This document shows, piece after piece, positions 1 to 62,914 of a stretch of 64,000 nt of DNA. The stretch lies in IMG/VR virus record IMGVR_UViG_3300028585_000514. The stretch is one strand, 5' to 3'. Origin of the DNA: a virus. Taxonomy: Duplodnaviria; Heunggongvirae; Uroviricota; Caudoviricetes. The notes under the pieces were generated by a model that saw only the letters and a program-made list of their open reading frames with translations, had not been told where the DNA came from and searched no databases. Position 1 is the first letter of the stretch. Each line of letters begins with the position of its first letter. The position numbers were made by a program, and so were the translations under genes.

Positions 1-216
1 GTTGGTTGCATGTCGGTGAGGAAACCAACTTGGCCGAGGTTGAAGCCGATGATCGGGATGTCGATGCCTGCTTCAGCCAAGAGCTTGGCGGTATACAGAA
101 CTGTGCCGTCGCCGCCGATTGGCACAGCAACAGTGTTCTCGTCGATGTCTTGTGCTGACCCGATGATTTTCAAATCAACGTCATTGTAATCGGTCTCCGA
201 CAGTACCAGCTTCATG
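1..216 (-). CDS. nadK: NAD+ kinase (NadK/PpnK), N-terminal part; the C-terminus lies beyond the window edge
   Basis: The minus-strand translation starts MKLVLSETDYNDVDLKIIGSAQDIDENTVAVPIGGDGTVLYTAKLLAEAGIDIPIIGFNLGQVGFLTD. The GGDGT and GFNLG(x)LGFLT motifs are typical of NAD kinases. The ORF runs off the window. Confidence 0.6.
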
Positions 217-303
217 TGCTGGATTACTTCATGGGAGACCGCGACATTGGCGCCGCCGACTTTTGGTACTACGAAAATTTTGTTGAACACTGTTGCCTCG
301 AAA

Positions 304-624
304 TTAGAGAACTTGATTGATGAGCTGTTCGATGGCGCCTTTAGACACCGCACCGACTTTGGTAACCTTGACTGCACCATCAGCAAACACCATCAGCGTC
401 GGAATACCACGAACGCCGAACTTGGCTGGTACGTCCATGTTTGCATCGACATCGACTTTGACGATCTTGACCTTGTCACCCAGCTCAACAGCGAGTTGTT
501 CAAGGATCGGACCGATCATTTTGCATGGGCCACACCATGGTGCCCAGAAATCGACTAGGACTGGAACGTCCGCTTTGAGTACGTCTGCTTCAAAGGAAGC
601 ATCGGTTGAATTGATGATTGACAT
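304..624 (-). CDS. trxA: thioredoxin
   Basis: The 106-aa product carries the WCGPC active site and a thioredoxin fold pattern. An AGGA Shine-Dalgarno and the AAAAATAATA motif sit upstream. Confidence 0.9.
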   Translation of the reverse strand: MSIINSTDASFEADVLKADVPVLVDFWAPWCGPCKMIGPILEQLAVELGDKVKIVKVDVDANMDVPAKFGVRGIPTLMVFADGAVKVTKVGAVSKGAIEQLINQVL

Positions 625-652
625 GTGATTCCTATTATTTTTGTTATGTGAG

Positions 653-674
653 AAAGGAGACCGAAGTCTCCTTT
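653..674. terminator. palindromic hairpin AAAGGAGAC-CGAA-GTCTCCTTT (copy 1 of 3)
   Basis: A perfect inverted repeat with a tetraloop, downstream of nadV on the minus strand. Confidence 0.6.
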
Positions 675-692
675 CTATTGTACTGCTGCTGA

Positions 693-2255
693 TTAGATCA
701 GTGCGCTATTTGCACGAGCACGGATTTCATCGAGGCTGTACTCTTTGACGAGCACACCGTTTTCCCAGATCGTTTCCATGATCTCGACGTGGATTTCTGG
801 ATTCACATCTTCGACGCGGATCGTCATGAATTCGCCGACTTGGCTCTTCACAACGGTGAGACGACCTTTCTTGCTGCGCTTGCCCATGTCAGTGATTGGG
901 TCTTTGAACACGTCAACCCATTCACCATCGACCTTCGCTGCGCAGGTCTTTTCAGCGAACTTGTAGGTATCGCGGTTGACCATTTGCAGCAGACCACCAC
1001 CTTGACCGAACACGATATTCTCGATCGAGTAGCCAGCTTCGGTGACTGCCATGCAGATGCGTTCGAAGTCTTCTGGCTTCGACAGGCCATCGCCTTGCAG
1101 AATGCGGACGATGTTCAGCACTTTCTTGCCTTTGCTGTTGATCGTCACACCAAAACCTTCTTCGAAGATTTTCAGCAGTTCGAGGATCACGGTGACGGCA
1201 TCGCCACTATCTGGGCGAACGACCAGGTTGACTTTGCGATCGATGATCTTCTGCTTCAGCGCACCTTTGGTGTACTGGCGAGCGAGGTTGAAGATGTCGT
1301 AGCCGTCCGAGACGATCGACACGATGGTGTTTGGTGCGAACTGGCTGAACTCGTCGATCAGGTCGTTGACCGTTTTCAGTTCACCATCTTTGCCGCGCAT
1401 CGTCATGATGCTGTGCTCAGTAGCAAAGACCGAGTATGCTGCCATCGGCGAGTTGTAGTACTTGTTAGCGAACAGGACGCCGGTGATGGTATCGGTACCC
1501 ATTGCGCCGGTTGCCAAGTGCGCTGCACCGCCGATGCCAGCCGATTCTTGACTCGACACACCACGAGCACCGAAGTCGTGGAACATGAAGGCAATTGCTT
1601 GCTCCCATGGCAGGTCCGAGGTCTCGAGGATGTACTTCTTCAGGATCGAACGAATCTTGAAGGAGCGCGAAGCGACGGTAGTTGGGTACCACACTGCACG
1701 AAGCATTGCGGTCTCGAAGTAGGCAACCATCCACGCCAGTTCTGGATCGGTCGACTCGATCGTCACCAGCGCATTGCTGGAATCGAGCACAGTACCTTCA
1801 GGCACTGCACGGATGCGCAGCGGAGGATAGCCACCGTAGACCTTGACAACCTTCTCCCAGTCTTTACGTGGAAACAGCTTTTCGCCGTTTGCGATGTGTG
1901 CCTTGAAGAAAGCTTCTGCTTCATCGATCATTTCCATCGTGACTGGCTTCAGACGCTTGAGCCACAGTTGGAAACCGAAGTACAGAATCTTGTCGACTTT
2001 CGAGCGGGGCTCGATGTAGGAGAACGCTCCCGTCACACCGAGACGACCGTACATTGCCTGGTGGCAGAGCTTGTACGAGTCCACGTCCAGGATGATGTTG
2101 TCTTCCGGACGTTCGATGGTGCGAGGATCGCCGAGCAATTTCAGCGCAGCCCAGAGTTGAGCACGCACTTTGCTTGGGTCTGAGAATTCTAGGTTACCGT
2201 AGCTTGGCAGCGTTGCGCGCAGTTGTTCGTAGATAGTGGTATTGATTGCGTTCAT
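693..2255 (-). CDS. nadV: nicotinamide phosphoribosyltransferase (NAMPT/NadV)
   Basis: The 520-aa product has the FHDFGARGVSS motif and NAMPT-like length and organisation. AAAAATAATA lies upstream of the ATG. Confidence 0.85.
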   Translation of the reverse strand: MNAINTTIYEQLRATLPSYGNLEFSDPSKVRAQLWAALKLLGDPRTIERPEDNIILDVDSYKLCHQAMYGRLGVTGAFSYIEPRSKVDKILYFGFQLWLKRLKPVTMEMIDEAEAFFKAHIANGEKLFPRKDWEKVVKVYGGYPPLRIRAVPEGTVLDSSNALVTIESTDPELAWMVAYFETAMLRAVWYPTTVASRSFKIRSILKKYILETSDLPWEQAIAFMFHDFGARGVSSQESAGIGGAAHLATGAMGTDTITGVLFANKYYNSPMAAYSVFATEHSIMTMRGKDGELKTVNDLIDEFSQFAPNTIVSIVSDGYDIFNLARQYTKGALKQKIIDRKVNLVVRPDSGDAVTVILELLKIFEEGFGVTINSKGKKVLNIVRILQGDGLSKPEDFERICMAVTEAGYSIENIVFGQGGGLLQMVNRDTYKFAEKTCAAKVDGEWVDVFKDPITDMGKRSKKGRLTVVKSQVGEFMTIRVEDVNPEIHVEIMETIWENGVLVKEYSLDEIRARANSALI

Positions 2256-2324
2256 GATTTAAAACTCCTTTAAGATATTATTTTTGATTTGAAGCACGGA
2301 CTCCCCGTGCCGATTGTACAAGCC

Positions 2325-3353
2325 TTACAGCTTGTTGATAAAGTGCTCGCCGATGTGGAAGTGGTCTTCGAACATCACAGCTTCCATTTGACGGAACTGT
2401 GCGAACGTGAACCATTTTGCCTTCTTGGCATCGTCGGAACCTTTAACTTTTGGCAGACCAGTGCCATGCTGCTCGAGATGAATCAGTGCAGCTTCGGTGA
2501 TGATACGACCGCGGAGCGAACGACCTGGATTCATGAACAACTTCTGTTCGCGAACAGCTTTGCGCAGGATGATTTCTGGCAAGTCAATCTTTGCTTCCTC
2601 GATCAGTTCACGAATCGCTGCATCGAGGTAGGTCTTGTCACCTGGATTCAGGTAACCACCTGGCAGAGCCCACAGGTCCTTCCCAGGGGCATTCTTGCGT
2701 TGGATCAGAAGGATATGTCCAGACTGAACCACAACTGCGTCCCCTGTGTTGAACGTGGGCGCATAGCGAGCAAATGCCCATTGCTTGGCATGCTCGTCCA
2801 GGAACTTTTGTTCTTCGAGGATGTAGTCGTACGCATCAGTTACTTGGAACTCCTTCAGATACTCGATCACGTTCTTTGGCAAATACAGCGGAGCTGCAGC
2901 CATGAACTTGTTCTTAAAGAAGGCAGAACGAAGGTCTGTTGCGTTGATCGTTTCCAAGCCATCGGTCTCGACGTGAGGCGAGAATTGAGGAAACTTTTTC
3001 AGGTAGTACGAAGAGTCGTCTTTCGAGTAGCCAATCAAGGAAACTTTCTTGGCGCCTTTACGATTACGGTGGACGGCGCGTTGCACGCCTTCGATCCATT
3101 GTTCTTCGTTGTATGGGCGATCGCGAAGTGGCTCGAACGATACTCGTTCAAGTTCGGATGCAGTGAGTGCACCTTGGATCATTGCGCGACGTTCGTCGTA
3201 AGTCCAAGGGTTCTTAGGAGTGCGAGGCTGATCTGCACTGCCGATCAAGATGACCAGACGTTCGGATTGTGCAAGTGCCTCTTTGATGACCATCTCATGA
3301 CCGAGATGGAAAGGTTGGAATCGCCCGATGTAGGCGAGAAGTTCGTATTTCAT
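2325..3353 (-). CDS. nadM: bifunctional NMN adenylyltransferase / Nudix ADP-ribose pyrophosphatase (NadM-Nudix, NatV-like)
   Basis: The N-terminus has the GRFQPFHLGH (HxGH) nucleotidyltransferase motif. The C-terminus has a Nudix box, PGGYLNPGDKTYLDAAIRELIEEAKI. Confidence 0.85.
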   Translation of the reverse strand: MKYELLAYIGRFQPFHLGHEMVIKEALAQSERLVILIGSADQPRTPKNPWTYDERRAMIQGALTASELERVSFEPLRDRPYNEEQWIEGVQRAVHRNRKGAKKVSLIGYSKDDSSYYLKKFPQFSPHVETDGLETINATDLRSAFFKNKFMAAAPLYLPKNVIEYLKEFQVTDAYDYILEEQKFLDEHAKQWAFARYAPTFNTGDAVVVQSGHILLIQRKNAPGKDLWALPGGYLNPGDKTYLDAAIRELIEEAKIDLPEIILRKAVREQKLFMNPGRSLRGRIITEAALIHLEQHGTGLPKVKGSDDAKKAKWFTFAQFRQMEAVMFEDHFHIGEHFINKL

Positions 3354-3527
3354 AGGACTACCCTAACAATATTATTTTTGTGTTTACTGCACCAAGAACT
3401 CTCTTGGCTTTTGTCGTTGATCGACAAATTTATTTATATGAGAATTATATCGGCCCCTATGCATCCGACGCTGAAATTGCAGCTAGATGTTTATGAACGG
3501 AAATTTAGAAAGTATAGACGCAAAAAA

Positions 3528-3562
3528 AGCTAGCGAGAACAAGTCTCAACTAGCTTTCTCTG
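3528..3562 (-). terminator. Rho-independent terminator (AAAGCTAG…CTAGCTTTTTTT on the minus strand)
   Basis: An 8-bp stem and a T7 tract, downstream of gene 3606..4277. Confidence 0.55.
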
Positions 3563-3605
3563 GAAGACGCGGAGGCAGTCTTACCTACCTCCCGCCACTT
3601 GACGT

Positions 3606-4277
3606 TTAAGCCAAGACCATCTTGGTCTTGAACTCGTCGGCCGGCACGGTCTTGATGCCATCAGCGCCTTCGACCTTGACGTTCTGCAGCACGACGTCAT
3701 GTGCACGACCTTTCAGGCCAGCCACCTTGTAGGTAGCGTCGTCGCCGGCCAGCTGGACTTCCTTGCCGAGCAGACCAGGACGGATGCCGATCAGCTTTGC
3801 ATTTTCCAGGAAGCGTGCACCTTCACGGGTCATGCCGGCCGCTTTCGGCTTGGCGGTGCCATTCAGTTCGGCGACGTGGGCGACCAGACGCAGGCTCAGG
3901 GCTTGACCTTGTTGGGTCAGGCGAGGCGTCAGTTCACCGAAGTTCACGCCGTGTTTCTGGCCCAGTTCCTTCAGCACCTTCTTCAGGTCGCGCTGGATGC
4001 GCTCGGCACGGGTTTCGCCGATCTTCGGCACTTCCTTCTGTTCCTTGGCGACCGGGACGTTCGTCTCGATCTTGGTCTTGCGCTCGGCGATTTCCGCAGC
4101 GCGCTTTTCAGCAGCTTCGGCTTCACGCTTCAGGCGTTCGGCACGAGCACGTTGCTTGTCGAGCAGCTTGGCTTCACGTTCGACGCGAGCAGCTTGGGTT
4201 TGTTCCGGAGTGCGGCGAGCACGTTTGGTCGGTGCATTGGTGTTGGTGGTTGCGGCGCCGGCTTCTTGGATGTTCAT
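3606..4277 (-). CDS. hypothetical highly charged (K/R/E/A-rich) protein; likely start MNIQEAG
   Basis: This is a GC-rich ORF with a TGTACT-N17-TATTAT promoter about 110 nt upstream and a hairpin terminator downstream. I recognised no domain. Confidence 0.55.
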   Translation of the reverse strand: MNIQEAGAATTNTNAPTKRARRTPEQTQAARVEREAKLLDKQRARAERLKREAEAAEKRAAEIAERKTKIETNVPVAKEQKEVPKIGETRAERIQRDLKKVLKELGQKHGVNFGELTPRLTQQGQALSLRLVAHVAELNGTAKPKAAGMTREGARFLENAKLIGIRPGLLGKEVQLAGDDATYKVAGLKGRAHDVVLQNVKVEGADGIKTVPADEFKTKMVLA

Positions 4278-4389
4278 GGTAATTCCTCTCATGGGACCAC
4301 TTGATTTAGATGGTAGACAAACCGTCTACCGCTCGTGAAACAAGTGAGAAGCATCTCTTTAAATTTCGATACGTCTCAACATGAGTAGA

Positions 4390-4418
4390 ATAATATACCG
4401 CCCTTTATGAAAAGTACA
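4390..4418 (-). promoter_or_regulatory. sigma70-like promoter TGTACT-N17-TATTAT (P1)
   Basis: Hexamers and the 17-nt spacer read on the minus strand, upstream of 3606..4277. Confidence 0.5.
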
Positions 4419-4542
4419 CTGCCCCTACAAACTTTTTTGCGAAAAATCACAAAAAAGTTTTGGAGAATTATTTGAACGAACTGGGCTAACCGTTTAAAAT
4501 CAACAACTTAGCCCATTTCTTTGATCTACATCAATAAGACGC

Positions 4543-4968
4543 TTAATCCAGGTCTTCTTCTTTTCGAATGACCTGTTCAGCCAGCTGAACGATGTCCTTA
4601 TGAAGATCACGTCCCACCTTCATGAACTGGTCACAAGTCAACCAAATGACTTCATCAGTTTCATAGTGAGGTGTGTCGAACTCTTCTTTGTTCTTCACCT
4701 TAGCCACGTAGACCGTAGTACGTCCCAGGAAATTACCCAGTTCGGTTACGGACAACGTATTTTCTTGTCGCAGGCCTAGTTCCTCTGCACCTTCTCTTAA
4801 CGCTGCAGTCCTGTTGTCCTCACCATCTTCCACTACACCTTTGCATAGTTGGAACTGGTCGCCACCGTAAAGTGTTTCGGATGGCTTCATGAACATCATC
4901 AGGACTTCACCGTCTTCGATAAGGTAAGGGATCATACCGGCACGGTATAGAATTTTCTTACCTTTCAT
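4543..4968 (-). CDS. Nudix hydrolase
   Basis: A Nudix box is present: GVVEDGEDNRTAALREGAEELGL, matching GX5EX7REUXEEXGU. Confidence 0.75.
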   Translation of the reverse strand: MKGKKILYRAGMIPYLIEDGEVLMMFMKPSETLYGGDQFQLCKGVVEDGEDNRTAALREGAEELGLRQENTLSVTELGNFLGRTTVYVAKVKNKEEFDTPHYETDEVIWLTCDQFMKVGRDLHKDIVQLAEQVIRKEEDLD

Positions 4969-4985
4969 TTAAAGTTTCCTTTATG

Positions 4986-5210
4986 TTATTTGATAGTGGC
5001 GTTAGGCTTTAATGAAACTTCAACCTTGGCGCCTTTGAATTCGGGACCGGTGTGACCGTGATGGCCATTGAATCCTGCTGATACGTTGAACACAATGGCT
5101 TTGGTATTTACCGAGTCGCGAAGGAGTGGGTAGTTGTCCTTCACGTATTGTGCAAGAATTTCTTGCACTTGTGAGGACGTGAACTCAAGAGTAGCTTTCA
5201 CGTCCTGCAT
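4986..5210 (-). CDS. hypothetical protein
   Basis: A 74-aa ORF that is tightly packed with its neighbours. Confidence 0.45.
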   Translation of the reverse strand: MQDVKATLEFTSSQVQEILAQYVKDNYPLLRDSVNTKAIVFNVSAGFNGHHGHTGPEFKGAKVEVSLKPNATIK

Positions 5211-5213
5211 GTC

Positions 5214-5915
5214 TTACACTCCGGCGAACATCGAGTCGGACATCTTCTGGAACGTACCTTTGATACGGCTGAAGATGTAGTTAGCGATCTTGCGAACTGG
5301 GTCGTTGATGATCGTCCAGGTGAACGAGATCGGCCAGAACATGATCCACTGCGTGATGCTCGACTTGTGTTGCATCGCCAGCGGCTTGAACGATTGCGGG
5401 ATGTTCGATGGGTTCTCGGCCAAGTCGGTCTTGTCGATCGACTCGTACAGACGCATACGGCTGCTGTTCACGAAGCGGAAGAAGTCCAGGTTGCGTTCCA
5501 TGATTTCTTCACGCTCTTGAGCTTCTTCTTTGTTCTCGACCTGGTCTTTCGACTTGGCAGTGCGGAGGAACAGTTCGCCGAGCTTGTTGTTCTTGCGATA
5601 CTTATCTTTCAGCTCGACATATAGGTCACGGACATTGGCCAGTTTGAAGTACCACTTGGCGAAGGACCAGAGGACACCGATGACGAAGTAGCTTGCGATG
5701 CCGATTGCCAGGCTGGTAGGATTGCTGATGATGGCACCGAAGTCGATGCTGAAGTGATTGCCAACCAGCCAGACGAGAAAAGCGGAGAAGATCGTGGTCC
5801 AGCCCCAGCCGGATGCTTTGTCATCGTCGATGTTCAGAGCGATGCCGAGGATGAAGAGGACTACCAGTGCGTAGAACACCAGCGGGATAGCGAAGAAGGC
5901 AAAGATTGCTTCCAT
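5214..5915 (-). CDS. hypothetical membrane protein
   Basis: Several hydrophobic segments at the N-terminus. An AGGAG Shine-Dalgarno and an ATAATA motif lie upstream. Confidence 0.65.
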   Translation of the reverse strand: MEAIFAFFAIPLVFYALVVLFILGIALNIDDDKASGWGWTTIFSAFLVWLVGNHFSIDFGAIISNPTSLAIGIASYFVIGVLWSFAKWYFKLANVRDLYVELKDKYRKNNKLGELFLRTAKSKDQVENKEEAQEREEIMERNLDFFRFVNSSRMRLYESIDKTDLAENPSNIPQSFKPLAMQHKSSITQWIMFWPISFTWTIINDPVRKIANYIFSRIKGTFQKMSDSMFAGV

Positions 5916-5933
5916 TTGAAACTCCTATTATAT

Positions 5934-6293
5934 TTATTGAACGAAAAATACGTAAAATTTTTGAAGCCGTTGACGGGATGTCACGATCGCCTCGATTTGC
6001 TCTACTTCACCATACTCGATAAGAAGAATAACCGGCCTATCGATTTGGTCCCATGAGTTGATCAAACCTTTGGTAAGGTCGATCGAACTGATCAAGACCT
6101 CCATATTCAGTTTATGGGCAACTGACATATAGGGAAAGTGACTCGGTGAATGAATCACAATCAGAGGGTCTTGCTGAAATTCTGATCCAACATCTTGCGA
6201 CGCGGTCAGAATATCCTTGAATCTGCTTAATGCTATTGGGTGTGCCATGATGCTGGCCAGTGGAGTTGGAGCGAGTGAAGCACGAAGCTTCAC
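5934..6293 (-). CDS. hypothetical protein (start uncertain, possibly the internal MAHPIA)
   Basis: The ORF is called only from its presence in the six-frame track. Support is weak. Confidence 0.4.
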   Translation of the reverse strand: MKLRASLAPTPLASIMAHPIALSRFKDILTASQDVGSEFQQDPLIVIHSPSHFPYMSVAHKLNMEVLISSIDLTKGLINSWDQIDRPVILLIEYGEVEQIEAIVTSRQRLQKFYVFFVQ

Positions 6294-6310
6294 TCACTTA
6301 TGCGATAGGC

Positions 6311-6973
6311 TTAGAAGCCGATCTTGGCGCCGAAGGTGGTCTGGCTTGGCAGCTTGACGTCACGGACATCGCGGCCGCCTTCGTTGTAGCTGACGTACAC
6401 GTCGACGTTCGACTTCAGCTTGTACGACAGGGTCGCGTCGTAGTTGGTGTGGCGGGTCACGCCTTCGTTGCGGTAGTGGGTGTAGGCGGTGCCGACATTG
6501 CCGGTGAAGCCCAGGATGGAAGGGGTGGTGTAGCCGACACGAGCGTAGGTGTTGCGGCCGTCGTTGGTGGCGCGATCGATGGTCTGTGCGACGAATGCAT
6601 CGACACCTTTGAAGGCAGCTGCGGCGAACACTTCGTTGAAGTTCTGGGCATGCGATGCTTTGCCTTGGCCGGTCAGCAGGTGTTGGTTGTAGCCAGCGGT
6701 CAGGTCGACACCGGCGATCGAGGTGGTATAGCCAGCAGTGGCGGTGGTGAACAGGTCCGAACGATCCGACAGGGTGTTGGTCTCGACTTGGCCGAACAGG
6801 CCGCCGACGGAAGCACGGACGGTTGCGTTCAGGCTTGCTTGTTCGCCGCTTTGCTGGACACCACGCCAGACATATTTCGATTGTGCACCGACGTTGCCGG
6901 TGACTTCGGCTGCTTGTGCCGAGAACGAGAATGCCAGAATGGCTGCCGCGATTGCAGTGGTAAACTTCTTCAT
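6311..6973 (-). CDS. secreted outer-membrane beta-barrel-like protein
   Basis: Signal peptide MKKFTTAIAAAILAFSFSAQA, a Gly/Thr/Tyr-rich body with alternating residues, and a C-terminal Phe (…GAKIGF). The ORF is GC-rich and host-like. Confidence 0.6.
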   Translation of the reverse strand: MKKFTTAIAAAILAFSFSAQAAEVTGNVGAQSKYVWRGVQQSGEQASLNATVRASVGGLFGQVETNTLSDRSDLFTTATAGYTTSIAGVDLTAGYNQHLLTGQGKASHAQNFNEVFAAAAFKGVDAFVAQTIDRATNDGRNTYARVGYTTPSILGFTGNVGTAYTHYRNEGVTRHTNYDATLSYKLKSNVDVYVSYNEGGRDVRDVKLPSQTTFGAKIGF

Positions 6974-7073
6974 TGAGATTTCCTATTATTTTTGGTTAGA
7001 TAATTCACCGAATCAAATCATCTTTGTGTTTCAATTCGGTGAGGAAATTATACCAATAGGAAACGCGTCAAGG

Positions 7074-8018
7074 TTAATCCTGTATCGCAGTTTCTAGCTC
7101 CGGCGGAACTGGGTAATTCTTGCGCTCAATTCCTTTCTTCACCATTTTCAGGATGTCTTGCAACTTATCCTTCAAAATGAAATCATCAGAATTGATTACG
7201 TCCCAAACTTGTTCCCACGTCAGAACATCAGTAGGCTTGTAGTTGGAACCAAAGAACTTAGTCACGACATCCTGAGGATCGGTTGATACGACCTTCTTGT
7301 CAATTGTCTTAGCCGACTTCGTCAGCTTCTTCTTACCCTTAATCGTCTGTGTACCTTGCATCAGGCCCTTTGCTAGGTCGAAGAAGAATCTATCCCAAGT
7401 AGCTGGAACTTCTTTACCATCAAGTTCACCCTTCTCAGTAACTTGAGTGTCGCAATAACGAGCGCATGCGTAATACACCTCCTTAGGATACAGAGCTTTG
7501 TATTTGCTTTCGTTATGTGCTGGACTGTAGTACGACCACGCGGCATACTTTAAATCATCAACTGGCATTAAGTCAAGTTGAACATGTTTGTCCTCTTGCT
7601 CTCCGTCCTCATTGACAATAGGGTACCCTACGCTCACGACGTCCAACCCAGGGAACGCCTGGCAGCCTTTGTACTGTTTACCTACCTCCTTAAGGAAATC
7701 GAACACAGCGGCCTTATCCTTGAGGTTGTTGGCTTTCATTAAGGCTTTGATCGAAATGCCTAAGTCGATGTCACCTGACGAACCTTCAGGCGTGCCATTC
7801 TTCTCAGGGTCTTTCTTGCCAGTGGAACCAAGAAGTGTCGTGTCGGACTTCTTGATGTTCAGCTTTGGTAGAAGATCAGCGTAGATTGCCTCAATGGTCT
7901 TCTTGACATTAAGCTGATTGATTCGAGTTGAGGTCTTGATCGCGTTCCCGCCTTCCATCAATTGCTTGCGTGAAAGTACTGGGCGCGCCTCGACCAGGAA
8001 TTCTTTAAATGTTCTCAT
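7074..8018 (-). CDS. hypothetical protein with a possible nucleotidyltransferase-fold motif
   Basis: A 314-aa product. The segment GS…SSGDIDLGI resembles the hG[GS]…DhD motif of the Pol-beta nucleotidyltransferase superfamily. Confidence 0.6.
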   Translation of the reverse strand: MRTFKEFLVEARPVLSRKQLMEGGNAIKTSTRINQLNVKKTIEAIYADLLPKLNIKKSDTTLLGSTGKKDPEKNGTPEGSSGDIDLGISIKALMKANNLKDKAAVFDFLKEVGKQYKGCQAFPGLDVVSVGYPIVNEDGEQEDKHVQLDLMPVDDLKYAAWSYYSPAHNESKYKALYPKEVYYACARYCDTQVTEKGELDGKEVPATWDRFFFDLAKGLMQGTQTIKGKKKLTKSAKTIDKKVVSTDPQDVVTKFFGSNYKPTDVLTWEQVWDVINSDDFILKDKLQDILKMVKKGIERKNYPVPPELETAIQD

Positions 8019-8021
8019 GGA

Positions 8022-8480
8022 TTAGAAACTCTGATTGTCGTACTCTAAGGTCTGGCTTAGATTGACACCGTGGTATCGCTTAACGATTTTAGCGAATGCC
8101 ATAAACTGGTCGCCGTGGTCAATGTCGCACATTTCGTCATAGCCATGGCGCTGCGCCAAAGCCTGATGTACCATTTCATGTACAACGACATTGATGAGTT
8201 CTTTGACATCCTTGATACGCTCGCAGAAACGGAGCGTGATGCCATTGGCGCCTTTGTTATCGCAGTAGCCCATGATGTGGGCATTCTCTGGACGATTTTC
8301 TACTGGCACTAGATAATCTAGGTCGGCCTCTAACGTAAACTCTGGCTCATTAAGATTGCCAAAGATTTTTGTATTGACGTCGGCCCAGATTTGTTTGATG
8401 GAGTCGAGCGAAAGCCAATCGTCTTTCGGCTCGAATTTTTCAGGCTGGCTCTCCAGAAACTGTTTGAAGGTTCTTTTCAT
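8022..8480 (-). CDS. SprT-like zinc metallopeptidase domain protein
   Basis: An HEMVHQ (HExxH) motif sits in a 152-aa protein. Confidence 0.6.
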   Translation of the reverse strand: MKRTFKQFLESQPEKFEPKDDWLSLDSIKQIWADVNTKIFGNLNEPEFTLEADLDYLVPVENRPENAHIMGYCDNKGANGITLRFCERIKDVKELINVVVHEMVHQALAQRHGYDEMCDIDHGDQFMAFAKIVKRYHGVNLSQTLEYDNQSF

Positions 8481-9204
8481 GTTGGTCTTTTACGATTTTC
8501 AGTATGTTATCAATCGCTTCTGTGGCCGGCGCGAAGAACGTGCGGTCAAACAGACGATAGTCGATCATACCATATTTATCTTTGTCTTTATTATTCAAGA
8601 TCGTAAAAGACTTGTTGGGAGTACGACGATTGCCGGCAATCTTGTCCATTGCGATCACTTCGCCAGAGGTACCGATCACGAGAATGATGTCCTTACGCGA
8701 GTCACGGAAGGCCTTGTACATGTTCGGATACTCAGGAGCACCTTCGTTAAAGAAGATCACGCCCGGCTTGACACCAGCAACCGACCCACAGCATGGGCAT
8801 GCGGTACCCAACTGAACTTCAGTGAAGCCAACATCCCAGATATGCTCGCAGTCGAGACACTTCATGTCAGTGAACTTGCCATGGACATGGACGACATCTT
8901 CACAGCCAGCACGTTCAAGGAAGTCGTCGATGTTTTGAGTGAACACCTTCACGACATCCTTGCCATACTCCTTCTGCAGTGCAGCGATACCTTCGTGAGC
9001 CTTGTTAGGCTTCAGGGTAGGCAGTTCGACGCGACGTTCGTTGTAGAACTTGAACACCGTTTCTTTATGCAATGGGAACGTCCAGAGGTTTGCTACAACA
9101 TCTGGATTGTACTTCGTCCACAGTCCGTCGTCATTGTCTCGGAAGGTGGAGATGCCAGACTCAGCAGAAAGACCAGCACCAGTGAAAATCAAAATTTGGT
9201 TCAT
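8440..9204 (-). CDS. cobB: Sir2-family NAD-dependent deacylase (CobB-like)
   Basis: GAGLSAESGISTFR matches the GAGISAESGIPTFR sirtuin motif. A CxxC…CxxC zinc site is present (CLDCEH…CPCCGS). Confidence 0.85.
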   Translation of the reverse strand: MNQILIFTGAGLSAESGISTFRDNDDGLWTKYNPDVVANLWTFPLHKETVFKFYNERRVELPTLKPNKAHEGIAALQKEYGKDVVKVFTQNIDDFLERAGCEDVVHVHGKFTDMKCLDCEHIWDVGFTEVQLGTACPCCGSVAGVKPGVIFFNEGAPEYPNMYKAFRDSRKDIILVIGTSGEVIAMDKIAGNRRTPNKSFTILNNKDKDKYGMIDYRLFDRTFFAPATEAIDNILKIVKDQHEKNLQTVSGEPA

Positions 9205-9207
9205 GTA

Positions 9208-9396
9208 TTATCCGAATAGAACCTGTTGTCCTCCGACAGTCTTTGGAAACACGGATGGCGCGACTCCTTCGGTAACAGGCATAGTTGCTGCGCTCAATTG
9301 CGCATGTTCAAACGTTGGGTACGGGCCAACTTCTTGACCTGATCCTAAACGAATATAATACTGCACTTTTGCGGTGTCGGTTGAATTAAGTAACAT
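9208..9396 (-). CDS. hypothetical small protein
   Basis: A 62-aa ORF in a minus-strand operon. Confidence 0.4.
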   Translation of the reverse strand: MLLNSTDTAKVQYYIRLGSGQEVGPYPTFEHAQLSAATMPVTEGVAPSVFPKTVGGQQVLFG

Positions 9397-9451
9397 GATT
9401 TTTCCTTATAGTATGGTTATGATCTTATTTATGATCCCATAAGGAGTAACG

Positions 9452-9480
9452 AAAAAAGCCACCCAATGGGTGGCTTTTTC
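9452..9480. terminator. hairpin GCCACCC-AAT-GGGTGGC with flanking A and T runs
   Basis: Downstream of 9500..10156 on the minus strand. Belongs to the CCAATGG-loop family. Confidence 0.6.
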
Positions 9481-9499
9481 TTTATGTCGGCTTTTTGTT

Positions 9500-10156
9500 T
9501 TACGCGGCCTGCTGGACTGGCTGATCGTCCTTCGGCGGGTTCTTCTCGTTTGCCGAGCGCGAGTAGACGAACGACACCGGACCATCCTTCGACTCTTGCA
9601 GCTTGTCGATCTTCATGGTGAAGCGATCCGATTGCGAACGGAGGATCGAGATGTAGACGTGGGTGATGCGTTCGGTGGTGCCGCAGCGTTCCATCAATTG
9701 CTTGATAGTCCATTGCTTGTAGGTGCCATCTTCGTTCTTCTCCCAGAAGGCGCGGCGCATCTTCTGCAGCTTCGAATCACGCTCCTTGCGTGGCTTCTTG
9801 CCGGCCATGGCTTCTTGTTGAACGATTTCTTCCGACTTCTGTTCGACGACCTTTTCTTCCTGCTTGTCGAACTGAGTCAGCAGGGACAGGTCCATCTTGG
9901 ACAGCAGACCGAAGACTTTCTCGGCTGCTTTCTCTTTCGCGATCTTGAACTTATTGATCGGCTCGACCGAGTGGGACTTGCCGAACTGCTCGAACGCGTT
10001 AAACAAGTCCGTCAGCTGCTGGAGCGACAGGACCTCGAGGTCTTTGGCTGAACTGACGATCAACTGATCCTCGGTGGCTTTCTCTTTTGCAGCATCTGGG
10101 TTTTGTACGAAACCCGCAACGTTGTTCAGTTTGGTGTTGATGATGAAAGCCGACAT
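9500..10156 (-). CDS. hypothetical protein
   Basis: A 218-aa ORF with a TGTACT-N17-TATAAT promoter upstream and a hairpin terminator downstream. Confidence 0.6.
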   Translation of the reverse strand: MSAFIINTKLNNVAGFVQNPDAAKEKATEDQLIVSSAKDLEVLSLQQLTDLFNAFEQFGKSHSVEPINKFKIAKEKAAEKVFGLLSKMDLSLLTQFDKQEEKVVEQKSEEIVQQEAMAGKKPRKERDSKLQKMRRAFWEKNEDGTYKQWTIKQLMERCGTTERITHVYISILRSQSDRFTMKIDKLQESKDGPVSFVYSRSANEKNPPKDDQPVQQAA

Positions 10157-10293
10157 GAAAATTCCTTAAGTAGTGTTACTTGACCATAGCTACGTGGTGT
10201 GGATATATTTTACCATCGCCGCTTTACTATGTAAATGAATTATTACATAATCAAGCGGTTTGTAACATAAGCATTCCACACCACCATGAAATC

Positions 10294-11849: not shown

Positions 11850-11858
11850 GATGATTCC

Positions 11859-13157: not shown

Positions 13158-13158
13158 A

Positions 13159-13422
13159 TTATTTTCCTGATTGAGGGTCGTTGATGACCGGCGCTGCAGG
13201 TTGAACTTGAAGCTTGCATGCAAGCAAGGCGTGTGGAACTTCCGAACCACCTTTCAAGACTACCATCTCTTCGCACGATTTCGCTTGAGCCAGAGCCGCG
13301 TTGGACTTGACACTCGAGTCATGGATGAAATATGCAATGCCGAGGATAACTGACACGATGAAGGTGCCGACCAGAAGTACAGTCACAACCGAGCTCGTGT
13401 TATCGTCCATTTCGATTTTCAT
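13159..13422 (-). CDS. small membrane protein
   Basis: An 87-aa product with one transmembrane segment. Its stop abuts the yeaH start. Confidence 0.5.
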   Translation of the reverse strand: MKIEMDDNTSSVVTVLLVGTFIVSVILGIAYFIHDSSVKSNAALAQAKSCEEMVVLKGGSEVPHALLACKLQVQPAAPVINDPQSGK

Positions 13423-13460
13423 GATTGCCTATTATTTTTGTATGAGGTACTACGTGCTGC

Positions 13461-13727
13461 TTACGAAACCAGGATTTCTCGTTTCAGGTAGGACAAAATC
13501 ATCCAGTCCTGAAAGTAAACTTCCTTGCCGTTGAGTTGGCTGAGGAGGTGTTCTTCATGTTCTTCGTCTTCGGCAAATGCGATGATGAATTCGCGAAGCT
13601 CTTCACGATTCTTGTCCGTCACTTTGACTGGGAAATCGTTGCAGCTATTATTGCTTAACTCGTCGGATGCCTGCTCTAGAAGTTTTGCGAAGATTGCCTT
13701 TTCAGTGTCGTTAAAGCTTAGGTTCAT
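13461..13727 (-). CDS. hypothetical protein
   Basis: An 88-aa acidic ORF. Confidence 0.5.
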   Translation of the reverse strand: MNLSFNDTEKAIFAKLLEQASDELSNNSCNDFPVKVTDKNREELREFIIAFAEDEEHEEHLLSQLNGKEVYFQDWMILSYLKREILVS

Positions 13728-13943
13728 TTGTCAGTCGGGTTGTTAGCCCATTTGAAGATTTTGTATGCACCACGGAGAATGCTGAACACACCGATAACAA
13801 CAACACCGATTAGTCCCACCGTGAATCTCAATAGCACCGGACCAAATACGAGTAACGCAATGATCCCTAAGATAATCAATACTACGGTCATGTTCTCTTT
13901 CGAATGCCACCGACTCGTGAAAGTCGGTGGCGGCCTTTAGTGA

Positions 13944-18572: not shown

Positions 18573-18579
18573 ATTATCC

Positions 18580-22444: not shown

Positions 22445-22446
22445 GA

Positions 22447-34892: not shown

Positions 34893-34893
34893 A

Positions 34894-37373: not shown

Positions 37374-37384
37374 TGATGGAGTTC

Positions 37385-62110: not shown

Positions 62111-62914
62111 TTACGGCGCGACTGGCAAAGCGCGCTTATGGATGGTGTTCACGTAGTGACGCAGGATGATCGAACGAGCAGCTTCACCAACATCCTTCCC
62201 TTCCAGGAAATCGTCGATCTGATCATAGGTCACGCCATACGACACTTCATCCGGCTTGCCCGGGTTCAGGTCTTCGAGGTCCGCAGTAGGAACCTTGTTA
62301 GCCATTGCCACTGGGGCGCCGAGTGCTTGTGCGATGGTACGCACTTGGCGTTTGTTCAGGCCAGTTAGTGGGGTTACATCACAGGCACCGTCACCGAACT
62401 TGGTGAAGAAGCCCATGACTGCTTCCGCCGCATGATCGGTACCGATGACAAGACCGTTGACTTGGCCTGCGATCGAGTACTGTGCAACCATACGCTGGCG
62501 TGCTTTGATGTTGCCCATGACGAAGTCCATCTTGTCCGCATCGTCTTCAGCGAAGTACGAATGGTTCATCATGCCGTTCGCAGCATCTTCGATGTTCACG
62601 GTCAGACGTTCATCCGGTTGGATGAAGTCGAGTGCAGCTTGTGCATCTTCTTCGTCACGCTGGACACTGTACGGCAGGCGAACTGCATAGAACTTGGCGA
62701 CAAGGCCTTTGGCGCGGACGCGTTCGACCGCAAGTTGAGCGAGACGACCAGCAGTCGTCGAATCGACACCGCCGCTGATTCCGAGGACGTAAGCCTTGCA
62801 GCCCGAACGTTCCAGATAATCAGCCAAGAAACCGACACGGCGTTCGATTTCGGCATTGACGTCGATCATCGGCTTGACGCCGAGTTCGTTAATGATTTGT
62901 GATTGTAATGGCAT
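62111..62914 (-). CDS. nadE: NH3-dependent NAD+ synthetase
   Basis: [15 protein letters not shown]-loop, NadE length, and NadE-family conservation. Confidence 0.9.

What the first reader, a model, noticed from the sequence alone, without database searches (positions are those of the whole stretch)
1..4968. NAD+ salvage set (NAMPT plus bifunctional NMNAT-Nudix) with NadK and Nudix; Sir2, NadE and APRT lie elsewhere in the window
NadV (NAMPT) and NadM-Nudix together can rebuild NAD+ from nicotinamide and PRPP. This is the same enzyme pair known from vibriophage-type NAD salvage and from phage NAD-reconstitution pathways that counter NAD-depleting defences such as Thoeris, DSR, SIR2 and SEFIR. 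The window adds a partial NadK (1-216), thioredoxin, a free-standing Nudix hydrolase, Sir2 (8440-9204), NadE (62111-62914) and Apt (63451-63969). This is an unusually complete pyridine/purine nucleotide toolkit.
Basis: partly seen in the sequence, partly recalled or inferred. Interest (0 to 1): 0.55.

Follow-up and report, generated by a model that had tools for sequence, protein, structure and literature searches.

The report
Jumbo-phage NAD+ salvage genes with NAD kinase
An uncultured giant bacteriophage carries the already known two-enzyme kit that rebuilds the cofactor NAD+ from nicotinamide, so it is an ordinary new example, with the small twist that an NAD kinase and a thioredoxin are attached to it.

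Summary
Family models and alignments to solved structures confirm them. They are NadK (partial; the true start is probably GTG at 290, not 216), thioredoxin, NadV/Nampt, NadM-Nudix, a free-standing Nudix, a CobB-like Sir2, NadE and Apt.

The window comes from a roughly 349-kb uncultured jumbo phage. It has 17 tRNAs. Its nearest cultured relative is Ralstonia phage RsoM2USA.

The adjacent NadM-NadV pair is the known NARP2-type NAD+ reconstitution pair, first characterised in vibriophage KVP40. The same pair sits side by side in 17 of 19 related viral contigs. The NadV here resembles true Nampt far more than the NARP1 enzyme Namat. Catalytic motifs are intact.

NAD gene sets in jumbo phages have also been described. 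The finding is therefore a new member of a known kind.

One point was modestly new in the literature I searched. NadK lies just downstream of NAD-synthesis genes, on the same strand, in several divergent large-phage lineages. The upstream enzymes differ between lineages (NadV/NadM, PnuC/NadR or PncA/PncB/NadD). This suggests phages also replenish NADP+.

NadE and Apt lie 58 kb away and are not linked to the cluster. The substrate of the free-standing Nudix and the function of the 228-aa ORF remain unknown. No function has been tested.

The parts
1..290 (-). N-terminal ~96 codons of an NAD kinase (NadK). The gene runs off the left edge of the window and is 285 aa in the source contig.
   Evidence: It contains the GGDGT motif and matches PF01513 at 1e-11. 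The full gene is called in L001 at 11966-12823 with both NAD_kinase and NAD_kinase_C domains. The GTG start at 290 is supported by N-terminal conservation in 25 homologues. All three relatives examined also have a GTG start and lack a promoter-like motif of their own.
304..624 (-). Thioredoxin of the TrxA type with a WCGPC active site. Probably co-transcribed with NadK.
   Evidence: PF00085 at 1.4e-32; TIGR01068 at 125 bits, above the cutoff. It occupies the same position between NadV and NadK in L027, L028, L029 and L032.
633..675 (-). Hairpin (652-675) followed by the promoter-like motif CAAAAATAATA (633-643), upstream of thioredoxin.
   Evidence: The motif occurs 18 times in the window against 1.3 expected. 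Its position relative to start codons and to a tRNA array is shown. A related hairpin-plus-motif layout is present in relatives.
693..2255 (-). NadV, a nicotinamide phosphoribosyltransferase (Nampt) of 520 aa. It has an N-terminal extension of roughly 35-50 residues.
   Evidence: NAMPT_N plus NAPRTase domains; NF006629 at 523.6 bits against a cutoff of 405. It scores 411 bits to Xanthomonas Nampt 7yqo and 326 bits to human NAMPT, with the HDFGxRG, AAHL, RPDSGD, GxGGxLLQ and RDT motifs aligned. It scores only 199.6 bits to Namat 9W5W.
2276..2310 (-). Hairpin (2294-2310) followed by the promoter-like motif (2276-2286), upstream of NadV.
   Evidence: The hairpin is conserved in L027-L029, with a compensatory change in L027 (GCACGG/CCGTGC becomes GCATGG/CCATGC).
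2325..3353 (-). NadM-Nudix, a bifunctional NMN adenylyltransferase / Nudix hydrolase of the same type as KVP40 NatV. 342 aa.
   Evidence: CTP_transf_like plus NUDIX domains. Full-length alignments to Synechocystis 2qjo (272 bits) and Francisella 2qjt (228 bits). The GRFQPFHLGH, NATDLR and RELIEE motifs are present. NF003786 scores 369 bits, below the cutoff of 397.
3370..3380 (-). Promoter-like motif CAAAAATAATA, 27 nt upstream of the NadM start codon.
3521..3562 (-). Terminator-like hairpin with a U-tract after the 228-aa ORF. It separates that ORF from the NadM transcription unit.
   Evidence: RNA fold of 3354-3610(-): z-score -3.76, with a strong stem followed by UUUUUUU.
3606..4292 (-). 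ORF of 228 aa (the gene call uses 223 aa from 4277) of unknown function. It is syntenic but restricted to this phage clade, and there is no evidence that it belongs to the NAD set.
   Evidence: No hit in Pfam, NCBIfam, PHROGs or PDB. Only 14 homologues were found. The AF2 model is weak (pLDDT 72.9, pTM 0.35) and gives no Foldseek hit at E<=0.001.
4543..4968 (-). Free-standing Nudix hydrolase of 141 aa. It belongs to a family seen mostly on uncultured long contigs and in two cultured jumbo phages. Its substrate is unassigned.
   Evidence: PF00293. There are 79 homologues of about 140 aa. The Nudix box core is invariant. The AF2 model has pLDDT 94.8. Its best folds are Ap4A hydrolases and RppH, with TM 0.73-0.75. 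A homologue at 50% identity lies between NadM and NadV in Ralstonia phage RsoM2USA.
8440..9204 (-). Sir2/CobB-like NAD+-dependent protein deacylase. It consumes NAD+ and releases nicotinamide. It overlaps a SprT-like gene at 8022-8480.
   Evidence: PF02146 at 3e-37. The GAGxS, QNID and HG motifs and four Zn-binding cysteines are visible in the translation. It is 39% identical to KVP40 Sir2. It is conserved upstream of the cluster in L028 and L032.
62111..62914 (-). NadE, an NH3-dependent NAD+ synthetase of the classical NaAD-amidating type. It lies 58 kb from the cluster.
   Evidence: NF001979 at 399 bits against a cutoff of 250. PDB 3dpi scores 321 bits and E. coli 1wxe 270 bits, while the Francisella NMN-synthetase type 3fiu scores 125 bits.
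63451..63969 (+). Apt, adenine phosphoribosyltransferase. It belongs to purine salvage and consumes PRPP. It is not demonstrably part of the NAD set.
   Evidence: NF002636 at 162.5 bits against a cutoff of 125.

Best explanation
The window is part of a roughly 349-kb uncultured jumbo phage. At 693-3353 it carries a NARP2-type NAD+ reconstitution pair.

Inferred from homology to characterised enzymes:
- NadV (Nampt) condenses nicotinamide with PRPP to give NMN.
- The N-terminal domain of NadM adenylates NMN with ATP to give NAD+.
- The C-terminal Nudix domain of NadM probably hydrolyses ADP-ribose or NAD(H), as in characterised NadM-Nudix proteins.

Shown by sequence: NadM, NadV and the Trx-NadK unit are each preceded by the same phage promoter-like motif, so they appear to belong to one expression class.

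In this phage lineage the pair is extended immediately downstream by thioredoxin and an NAD kinase. NadK would convert part of the rebuilt NAD+ into NADP+. NADPH in turn feeds thioredoxin-dependent and other reductive steps of nucleotide synthesis. This step is inferred.

The most likely selective role is to keep the NAD(P) pool up during infection. That pool is threatened by host NAD+-cleaving defence effectors (Thoeris, DSR, SIR2-HerA, SEFIR). It is also drawn on by the phage's own consumers, such as its CobB-like Sir2, whose nicotinamide product NadV can recycle.

NadE elsewhere in the genome can finish NAD+ from host NaAD. The free-standing Nudix is a syntenic companion of unknown substrate.
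For: Gene identities rest on curated models and solved structures.

Evidence for Nampt rather than Namat: 411 bits against 199.6 bits, and no PRPS-like Adps in the window or its 10-kb flanks.

Evidence for a conserved pair: 18 of 19 IMG/VR loci that hold NadM also hold NadV on the same strand, and in 17 of them it lies 28-510 nt downstream. Iyer et al. report that every NadM phage also has NadV (PMC9503650).

Experimental precedent: KVP40 Nampt plus Nmnat makes NAD+, counters NAD+-depleting defence systems when co-expressed with them, and partly overcomes type I Thoeris when knocked into phage SBSphiJ (bioRxiv 10.1101/2024.02.11.579819).

Evidence that this is a phage:
- 17 tRNAs.
- Contigs of up to 348,873 bp carry the identical proteins.
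- Shared synteny with Ralstonia phage RsoM2USA, in the order PrkA ... NadM ... Nudix ... NadV.

Evidence for NadK linkage:
- The order Nudix-ORF-NadM-NadV-Trx-NadK is conserved in L027, L028, L029 and L032, at NadK identities of 67-51%.
- In other lineages NadK again follows NAD-synthesis genes, but different ones: PncA/PncB/NadD-like/NadM in L030, PnuC/NadR-like/NadV in L042, and NadM/NadV in L031, L033 and L037.
- 15 of 47 distinct IMG/VR NadK loci have such a gene within 10 kb, always upstream and on the same strand.

A shared promoter-like motif precedes NadM, NadV and Trx, and is conserved in relatives.
Against: - Nothing has been tested biochemically or in infection. The host is unknown, so it is also unknown whether it has NAD+-depleting defences.
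- NadM scores below NCBI's equivalog cutoffs (369 against 397 bits).
- The first glutamate and the spacing of the Nudix box (GX5E) in NadM are altered, and relatives carry insertions of up to 12 residues there. The Nudix activity may therefore differ from that of characterised NadM-Nudix proteins.
- No PRPP synthetase was found in the roughly 84 kb examined, and the phage Apt would compete for PRPP.
- Much of the gene order is shared by descent within one clade, so synteny there is weak evidence of coupling.
- None of the 19 NadM-centred IMG/VR loci has NadK, so NadK is an optional addition.
- The fold of the free-standing Nudix resembles Ap4A hydrolase and RppH more than ADP-ribose pyrophosphatase.
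Confidence: 0.75

Rival explanations
1. The genes are auxiliary metabolic genes, not counter-defence genes. They raise NAD(P) supply for the phage's own needs. These needs would be NAD+-consuming enzymes such as the CobB-like Sir2, and NADPH- and thioredoxin-dependent nucleotide synthesis during replication of a very large genome. This is the 'NAD-jumbo phage' idea. It can coexist with the best explanation.
For: - A Sir2 deacylase lies 5 kb upstream, is conserved in relatives, and also occurs in KVP40.
- Thioredoxin and NadK sit directly downstream. Flavodoxin_2, UDG and thymidylate synthase follow within 10 kb.
- Li et al. describe 174 jumbo phages that have both complete NAD pathways and NAD-consuming enzymes (PMC11662467).
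- In the KVP40 work NARP2 raised NAD+ even without a defence system present.
Against: - The KVP40 pair demonstrably counters NAD+-depleting defence systems.
- NadM and NadV are strongly concentrated in phages (469 and about 2,000 records).
- There is no direct evidence that host NAD supply limits replication of these phages.
Confidence: 0.35
2. NadK, thioredoxin and the free-standing Nudix are merely neighbours by inherited gene order. Only NadM-NadV is a functional unit.
For: - None of the 19 NadM-centred IMG/VR loci has NadK, thioredoxin or this Nudix within 10 kb.
- The exact order is seen only in one clade.
- RsoM2USA has the Nudix homologue, but no NadK was found in the first 22 kb of its genome, the region holding NadV and NadM.
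- The Nudix fold is not specifically ADPRase-like.
Against: - NadK recurs downstream of NAD-synthesis genes in several lineages with different upstream enzymes and arrangements, at NadK identities from 67% down to 26%.
- A rough expectation is about 2%. This assumes that about one third of jumbo phages have NadV (PMC9503650) and that a 20-kb span covers about 7% of a 300-kb genome. The observed fraction is 15 of 47.
- The Nudix homologue also lies between NadM and NadV in the distant phage RsoM2USA.
Confidence: 0.25
3. The NAPRTase-family protein is a NARP1 Namat, which joins ADPR-PP and nicotinamide, rather than a PRPP-using Nampt.
For: Namat and Nampt are homologous, and both occur in phages (PMC12774641).
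Against: - The protein scores 411 bits to Xanthomonas Nampt and 326 bits to human NAMPT, but only 199.6 bits to SpbetaL1 Namat 9W5W.
- It carries a NAMPT_N domain.
- It sits beside NadM rather than Adps. No PRPS-like gene was seen in the roughly 84 kb examined.
- No phage was found to encode both pathways.
Confidence: 0.03
4. The region is bacterial chromosome or a plasmid, so these are ordinary host housekeeping NAD genes.
For: NadE, Apt, TrxA, NadK and PrkA-YeaH-SpoVR are typical bacterial genes.
Against: - There are 17 clustered tRNAs.
- Most ORFs have no family match.
- Homing endonucleases are inserted in relatives.
- The best matches for NadV, NadM, Nudix and PrkA include the cultured jumbo phage RsoM2USA, in the same gene order.
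- The contigs are 216-349 kb long.
Confidence: 0.02

Closest known systems
NARP2 (NAD+ reconstitution pathway 2): Vibrio phage KVP40 Nampt (NadV) plus Nmnat (NatV, a NadM-Nudix). Osterman et al. 2024 (bioRxiv 10.1101/2024.02.11.579819), building on the earlier KVP40 biochemistry cited there.
   Same: - The same two protein families and domain architectures: NAMPT_N plus NAPRTase, and HIGH-type adenylyltransferase plus Nudix.
- The genes are adjacent and on the same strand.
- Catalytic motifs are intact.
- No Adps is present.
- The genome also encodes a CobB-like Sir2, as KVP40 does.
   Different: - NadM is only about 35% identical to those of KVP40-like phages.
- The phage is a roughly 349-kb RsoM2USA-like jumbo phage, not a T4-like schizotequatrovirus.
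- NadV has a 35-50-residue N-terminal extension.
- The Nudix GX5E spacing is altered.
- Thioredoxin and NadK are appended downstream, and a second Nudix sits upstream.
- Activity and anti-defence effect are untested.
NadM / Nudix / NadV region of Ralstonia phage RsoM2USA (MG752970.1), the closest cultured relative. Its genes are annotated only as hypothetical proteins.
   Same: - NadM is 48% identical, NadV 45.5%, the free-standing Nudix 50% and PrkA 60.5%.
- The order along one strand is the same: PrkA ... NadM ... Nudix ... NadV.
   Different: - In RsoM2USA NadM and NadV are 4.6 kb apart, with the Nudix between them.
- No NadK or thioredoxin was found in the first 22 kb of its genome, the region holding NadV and NadM.
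'NAD-jumbo phages' (Li et al. 2024, PMC11662467) and the survey of phage NAD+ synthesis domains by Iyer et al. 2022 (PMC9503650)
   Same: A genome over 200 kb with a complete nicotinamide salvage route, NAD+-consuming enzymes and physically clustered NAD genes.
   Different: Neither paper mentions NAD kinase. Here, and in other lineages, NadK sits at the downstream end of the NAD gene cluster.
Sinorhizobium phage Phosso (PV764938.1, 469 kb)
   Same: It encodes NAD kinase (29% identity) and NadE (58.8% identity), together with an NAD salvage route.
   Different: Its salvage route is PnuC plus a NadR-like NMNAT (NARP3-like). That route lies about 5 kb downstream of NadK rather than upstream. No NadV was found in the 24.7-kb stretch I looked at.
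Bacterial NadM-Nudix proteins (Synechocystis slr0787, PDB 2qjo; Francisella, PDB 2qjt)
   Same: Full-length two-domain alignment, at 272 and 228 bits, including the HxGH and Nudix REx2EE motifs.
   Different: A phage copy, with a one-residue insertion and D in place of E at the first Nudix-box glutamate.

Membership tests
NARP2 (phage Nampt + Nmnat NAD+ reconstitution) | A Nampt-clade NAPRTase-family enzyme, PRPP-using and not of the Namat clade | tested here: met
   NAMPT_N plus NAPRTase domains; NF006629 at 523.6 bits, above the cutoff of 405. It scores 411 bits to Xanthomonas Nampt and 326 bits to human NAMPT, against 199.6 bits to Namat 9W5W. No explicit phylogenetic tree was built.
NARP2 (phage Nampt + Nmnat NAD+ reconstitution) | An Nmnat (NadM-Nudix type) in the same phage, functionally linked to Nampt | tested here: met
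   NadM-Nudix lies 69 nt upstream of NadV on the same strand. NadV lies 28-510 nt downstream of NadM in 17 of 19 related IMG/VR loci. The same promoter-like motif precedes both genes.
NARP2 (phage Nampt + Nmnat NAD+ reconstitution) | Absence of the NARP1 partner Adps (PRPS-like) | tested here: met
   The only Pribosyltran-family protein found in the window, among the ten ORFs scanned and the precomputed Pfam hits for called genes, is a 172-aa Apt. No PRPS-like gene appears among called genes from about -10 kb to +9 kb around the window. The rest of the roughly 349-kb genome was not seen.
NARP2 (phage Nampt + Nmnat NAD+ reconstitution) | Intact catalytic residues in both enzymes | tested here: met
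   NadV has DSYK, HDFGARG, AAHL (the catalytic His position), RPDSGD, GQGGGLLQ and RDT aligned to Nampt structures. NadM has GRFQPFHLGH, NATDLR and RELIEE. Assigning these motifs to catalysis rests on my knowledge of the NAMPT and NadM literature. The Nudix GX5E element deviates.
NARP2 (phage Nampt + Nmnat NAD+ reconstitution) | Produces NAD+ from nicotinamide, PRPP and ATP, and rescues phage from NAD+-depleting defence | not testable with these tools
   This needs enzyme assays and plaque assays like those done for KVP40 NARP2.
NAD-jumbo phage (Li et al. 2024) | Phage genome over 200 kb that encodes all steps of at least one NAD+ synthesis route | tested here: met
   Contigs of 216.6 kb and up to 348,873 bp carry the identical proteins. 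NadV plus NadM gives a complete nicotinamide salvage route.
NARP1 (Adps + Namat) | A PRPS-like Adps gene next to a Namat-clade enzyme | tested here: not met
   No Adps was found, and the enzyme is Nampt-like.
NARP3 (PnuC + NadR-like) | A PnuC transporter and a NadR-like NMNAT / ribosylnicotinamide kinase | tested here: not met
   No PnuC or NadR-like family appears among the precomputed Pfam hits for the called genes of the window and its flanks. This pairing is seen in Phosso and in L042.
Francisella-type NMN synthetase route (NadE* + NadM) | A NadE of the NaMN-amidating subtype | tested here: not met
   The NadE scores 270-321 bits to classical NaAD-specific NadE structures, but only 125.6 bits to Francisella 3fiu. 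Substrate preference itself is not testable here.
Defence-type SIR2 NADase (Thoeris ThsA, DSR, SIR2-HerA) | A SIR2 domain fused to or paired with a sensor (SLOG, HerA, DSR regions), usually without the sirtuin Zn ribbon | tested here: not met
   This is a stand-alone 254-aa protein. Its best matches are CobB-type deacylase models (NF001753, 163 bits). It has four Zn-ribbon cysteines and the HG motif, and it is 39% identical to KVP40 Sir2/CobB.

The most novel reading that the evidence does not exclude
NAD kinase, here coupled to a thioredoxin, may be a recurrent third component of NAD+ reconstitution modules in large phages, and none of the papers I searched mentions it. It sits immediately downstream of whichever NAD+-making enzymes a lineage uses: NadV/NadM, PnuC/NadR or PncA/PncB/NadD. 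On this reading, these phages rebuild the NADP(H) pool as well as NAD+. They would do so either because NADase defence effectors collapse NADP+ as well, or because NADPH limits dNTP synthesis once NAD+ falls. This would be an 'extended NARP', comparable to the phosphatase-extended NARP1 recently reported.
Probability: 0.4. Interest if true: 0.5.

Novelty: new member of a known kind. Interest (0 to 1): 0.3.

Why it matters
NAD+ depletion is one of the most common bacterial abortive-infection strategies, and phage pathways that rebuild NAD+ defeat many such systems at once.

This locus adds a divergent, uncultured jumbo-phage example of the known NARP2 pair, so on its own it changes little.

What might matter is the repeated attachment of NAD kinase to phage NAD-synthesis clusters. 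If it is functional, the contest over the cofactor pool would extend to NADP(H). It would also suggest a simple experiment: test NARP2 with and without NadK against NADase defences while measuring NADP+. The locus also supplies enzymes only 35-48% identical to the phage versions in cultured isolates, which could be used for such tests.

Tried and rejected
- Megablast of 1-5000 against 50,697 phage records gave no match. The phage has no close sequenced relative in that collection.
- A single-sequence NadK scan of IMG/VR found nothing. An alignment-based scan was needed.
- An exact-protein look-up of ORF 20629-21228 failed. The recorded gene call uses a later start, at 21189.
- I tested whether NadE plus NadM forms the Francisella-type NMN-synthetase route. 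I rejected this because the NadE is of the classical NaAD type.
- I tested whether NadV is a NARP1 Namat. Rejected.
- I looked for an NAD+ or other riboswitch in 1-10200 with Rfam at a permissive threshold. The only hit was a sub-threshold Phe_leader match on the non-coding strand, at a bidirectional terminator.
- I tried to assign a substrate to the free-standing Nudix by structure. The model is confident, but the nearest folds are generic small Nudix enzymes (Ap4A hydrolase, RppH, then NrtR and ADPRase). No assignment was possible.
- I tried to identify the 228-aa ORF. Pfam, NCBIfam, PHROGs and PDB sequence search gave nothing. The AF2 model is weak, and Foldseek gave no hit at E<=0.001.
- I tried to identify the 314-aa ORF at 7074-8018 by Pfam, PHROGs and PDB sequence search. 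No hits.
- I checked whether the best NadK hit in the phage database was a phage gene. 'Acinetobacter phage MD-2021a' places NadK among bacterial housekeeping genes, so the count of 31 phage records overstates how often phages carry NadK.

Full report
**What is there**

All genes in 1-10,200 are on the minus strand. Reading in the direction of transcription, the order and family matches are:

| Gene | Coordinates | Evidence |
|---|---|---|
| Sir2 | 8440-9204 | PF02146, 3e-37 |
| SprT-like | 8022-8480 | overlaps Sir2 |
| Five ORFs with no family match | between SprT-like and the Nudix | 314, 220, 119/104, 233 and 74 aa |
| Nudix hydrolase, 141 aa | 4543-4968 | PF00293 |
| ORF, 228 aa | 3606-4292 | no match |
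| NadM-Nudix | 2325-3353 | CTP_transf_like + NUDIX |
| NadV | 693-2255 | NAMPT_N + NAPRTase; NF006629 at 523.6 bits, cutoff 405 |
| Thioredoxin | 304-624 | TIGR01068 above cutoff |
| NAD kinase, first ~96 codons | runs off the left edge | GGDGT motif |

At the far end of the window, NadE (62111-62914) scores 399 bits on NF001979 against a cutoff of 250. Apt (63451-63969) scores 162 bits on NF002636 against a cutoff of 125.

Two details need correcting:
- NadK most likely starts at the GTG at 290, 13 nt after the thioredoxin stop. The source contig calls a 285-aa protein from there. The extra N-terminal residues are conserved in 25 homologues. The same GTG start is seen in three relatives.

**Where it comes from**

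The exact NadV protein is on JGI metagenome contig Ga0265798_10000068 (216.6 kb) and on six contigs of 0.2-1 Mb. The exact Nudix and 228-aa proteins are on a contig of 348,873 bp.

The window holds 17 tRNA genes, and most of its ORFs have no family match. It has no megablast match among 50,697 phage records.

The nearest cultured relative is Ralstonia jumbo phage RsoM2USA (343.8 kb). Identities are NadM 48%, NadV 45.5%, the free-standing Nudix 50% and PrkA 60.5%. The order along one strand is the same: PrkA ... NadM ... Nudix ... NadV. This is a jumbo phage, not a bacterial chromosome.

**The core pair**

NadV:
- It aligns over its whole catalytic region to Xanthomonas Nampt (7yqo, 411 bits) and to mammalian NAMPT (326-336 bits).
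- The DSYK, HDFGxRG, AAHL, RPDSGD, GxGGxLLQ and RDT segments are conserved. Assigning these to substrate binding and to the phospho-histidine rests on my knowledge of the NAMPT literature.
- It scores only 199.6 bits to 9W5W. 9W5W is the NARP1 enzyme Namat of phage SpbetaL1 (PMC12774641).

NadM:
- It aligns end to end with the solved bifunctional NadM-Nudix proteins of Synechocystis (2qjo, 272 bits) and Francisella (2qjt, 228 bits).
- It keeps GRFQPFHLGH, NATDLR and the Nudix RELIEE helix.
- The first Nudix-box glutamate is replaced by Asp with a one-residue insertion. Relatives carry insertions of up to 12 residues at this point, so the Nudix activity may not be identical to that of the characterised proteins.

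Conservation of the pair:
- 18 of 19 IMG/VR loci fetched with NadM also hold NadV on the same strand. In 17 of them it lies 28-510 nt downstream, and in one it is 4.1 kb away.

This is the enzyme pair of KVP40 that Osterman et al. named NARP2. They reported four things about it: it makes NAD+ via NMN, it inhibits NAD+-depleting defence systems when co-expressed with them, it partly overcomes type I Thoeris when knocked into phage SBSphiJ, and it occurs in about 1.1% of phages. In the phage collection used here, NadM matches 469 of 50,697 records. No PRPS-like Adps gene was seen in the window or its flanks, so the locus is NARP2-like, not NARP1.

**Expression signals**

The 11-mer CAAAAATAATA, allowing up to one mismatch, occurs 18 times in the window against 1.3 expected. 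Sixteen copies are on the coding strand. Most copies lie 0-30 nt upstream of an ATG (two lie about 50-60 nt upstream or lack a nearby ATG), and one abuts the first tRNA of a tRNA array. The tRNA case argues for a transcription signal rather than a ribosome-binding signal.

- Copies precede NadM (3370-3380), NadV (2276-2286) and thioredoxin (633-643). A hairpin lies just upstream of each.
- This layout is conserved in relatives at 51-67% NadK identity. The NadV hairpin shows a compensatory base-pair change in one of them.
- NadK has no motif of its own and follows thioredoxin by 13 nt, so Trx-NadK is probably one transcript.
- A terminator-like hairpin with a U-tract follows the 228-aa ORF. NadM is therefore not co-transcribed with it.
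- No Rfam family, and so no NAD+ riboswitch, is detected in 1-10,200.

**The extras**

*NadK.* In the phage collection only 31 records match the full NadK. The best of them places the gene among bacterial housekeeping genes. A clear phage case is Sinorhizobium phage Phosso (469 kb), which also has NadE (58.8% identity) and a PnuC/NadR-like route.

In metagenomes a family of NadK proteins occurs on contigs of 200-460 kb. Looking at their neighbourhoods:
- The order Nudix-ORF-NadM-NadV-Trx-NadK-...-UDG-Flavodoxin_2-SIS-...-ThyA is conserved in three relatives, and the Nudix-to-NadK core also in L032. GIY-YIG homing endonucleases are inserted between the NAD genes in two of them.
- More distant phages again place NadK directly after NAD-synthesis genes, but different ones:
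  - NadM, a NadD-like protein, PncA and PncB in L030.
  - NadM ... NadV in L031, L033 and L037.
  - NadV, PnuC and a NadR-like protein in L042.
- Fifteen of 47 distinct IMG/VR NadK loci have such a gene within 10 kb, always upstream and on the same strand. Among the 12 loci whose NadK is most like this one, 11 do.
- My rough expectation for chance proximity is about 2%. It assumes a 20-kb span of a 300-kb genome and NadV present in about one third of jumbo phages.

None of the papers I read on phage NAD metabolism mentions NAD kinase, and two literature searches for it found none that do. That is absence in the library searched, not proof of novelty.

*Thioredoxin.* It is a standard WCGPC TrxA-type protein. 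Its position next to NadK suggests a link through NADPH-dependent thioredoxin reduction. This is an inference.

*Free-standing Nudix.* It belongs to a family of 79 proteins of about 140 aa with an invariant Nudix-box core. Nearly all members are on unnamed metagenome contigs, several over 300 kb. The named ones are from jumbo phages: Xanthomonas phage Xoo-sp13, plus the RsoM2USA homologue found by tblastn. A confident model (pLDDT 94.8) is closest to Ap4A hydrolases and RppH (TM 0.73-0.75). ADP-ribose-binding Nudix proteins rank lower. Its substrate cannot be assigned.

*228-aa ORF.* It is restricted to this clade (14 homologues), models poorly and has no fold match. Its function is unknown.

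*Sir2.* It is a CobB-type sirtuin. The GAGxS, QNID and HG motifs and four Zn-ribbon cysteines are visible in the sequence. Its best phage matches are KVP40-like phages at 39% identity, so the combination Sir2 + NadV + NadM has a precedent. Sir2 consumes NAD+ and releases nicotinamide, the substrate of NadV.

*NadE.* It is of the classical NaAD-amidating type (321 bits to 3dpi). It is not the Francisella NMN-synthetase type (125 bits to 3fiu).

*Linkage of NadE and Apt.* Both lie 58 kb from the cluster, and nothing I found links them to it. No PRPP synthetase was seen in the roughly 84 kb examined.

**How it most likely works**

Shown by sequence:
- An intact Nampt and an intact NadM-type NMNAT are adjacent, share a promoter-like motif and are conserved as a pair.

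Inferred from characterised homologues:
- Nicotinamide + PRPP gives NMN.
- NMN + ATP gives NAD+.
- The Nudix domain trims ADP-ribose or NAD(H).

Inferred from context:
- NadK converts part of the NAD+ to NADP+, and thioredoxin uses the resulting reducing power.
- Sir2-derived and defence-derived nicotinamide is recycled by NadV.
- NadE completes NAD+ from host NaAD.

Inferred from the KVP40 experiments only:
- The module protects the phage from NAD+-depleting defences.

The main rival is that the module simply supports the phage's own NAD(P) demand, as in the 'NAD-jumbo phage' view (PMC11662467). The two readings are not exclusive, and sequence alone cannot separate them.

**Verdict**

This is a real feature, correctly read by the first stage. 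It is a divergent new member of a known kind: NARP2 in a jumbo phage. Overall interest is low to moderate.

The one point that goes beyond the literature I could search is the recurrent placement of NAD kinase at the downstream end of phage NAD-synthesis clusters. This would be worth a systematic test and a simple experiment.

Noticed in passing
window, 18 sites, e.g. 633-643, 2276-2286, 3370-3380, 6984-6994, 13430-13440, 44975-44985, 58874-58884: A promoter-like 11-mer, CAAAAATAATA, occurs 18 times (up to one mismatch) against 1.3 expected, and 16 copies are on the coding strand. Most copies lie 0-30 nt upstream of an ATG, and in four cases the ATG overlaps the end of the motif. One copy abuts the first tRNA of the 44-45 kb tRNA array. 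It is probably a phage-specific transcription signal giving very short leaders.
   Followed up: partly
window 10323-15884 (-): The phage carries a complete PrkA / YeaH (DUF444) / SpoVR trio, which in bacteria forms a stress and sporulation-associated operon. In the phage collection PrkA matches at about 60% identity RsoM2USA, three uncultured 635-642 kb huge phages and the 5' end of Enterobacter phage LAU1. It also matches the Thermus phiYS40 group at 28%.
   Followed up: partly
window 33067-38260 and 49296-51838 (-): There are three paralogous subtilase (Peptidase_S8) genes of 516, 516 and 542 aa. Each is paired with an adjacent ORF of 290-304 aa with no family match, which suggests a duplicated two-gene cassette.
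   Followed up: no
window 29006-53197, mainly 42354-44973 (-): There are 17 tRNA genes, with several isoacceptor duplicates: three Leu-CAA, three Glu-TTC, two Tyr-GTA and four Ser.
   Followed up: no
window 17478-18674, 20629-22935, 54596-55291 (-): A set of RNA-repair-type genes is present: a CCA-adding/poly(A) polymerase-family enzyme, PTH2, 2H-SAK (weak), HAD_SAK_2 and an RNA ligase. A weak RMF match lies at about 20396-20596. This may be a tRNA or RNA repair kit that goes with the tRNA arrays.
   Followed up: no
window 8022-9204 (-): The Sir2 gene overlaps a SprT-like HExxH metalloprotease gene by 41 nt. The Sir2-SprT pair is kept in relatives L027 and L028. The reason for this pairing is unknown.
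   Followed up: no
window 6311-6973 (-): A 220-aa ORF has an N-terminal signal-peptide-like sequence (MKKFTTAIAAAILAFSFSAQA) and a C-terminal ...GAKIGF, which looks like an outer-membrane beta-barrel protein. It has its own CAAAAATAATA motif and no family match. If correct, it points to a Gram-negative host. This is my reading of the sequence only.
   Followed up: no
window 7074-8018 (-): A conserved 314-aa ORF contains ...GSSGDIDLGISI..., reminiscent of the GS...DxD signature of pol-beta-type nucleotidyltransferases. It has no Pfam, PHROGs or PDB sequence match. It is conserved at the same position in L027 and L028.
   Followed up: partly
L027 6299-7078 and 8757-9404; L028 7433-8008: In relatives, GIY-YIG (SegE-like) homing endonuclease genes are inserted on the opposite strand between NadM and NadV and between NadV and Trx. 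They are absent from the window's phage.
   Followed up: no
L031, L034-L042, L083 (about 0.1-1.9 kb downstream of NadK); L038 and L039 (7.4-10.8 kb): In other large-phage lineages a NADAR-domain gene follows NadK within about 2 kb, and two contigs carry tandem NadK paralogues. NADAR next to NadM/NadV was noted by Iyer et al., but its adjacency to NadK was not.
   Followed up: partly
window 46401-47849 (-), 56962-57456 (-), 58926-59429 (-): Other conflict-type or nucleotide-related domains occur in the window: an R2K ATP-grasp protein separated by one small ORF from a cREC_REC protein, a His_Phos_1 phosphatase and a CYTH-domain protein.
   Followed up: no
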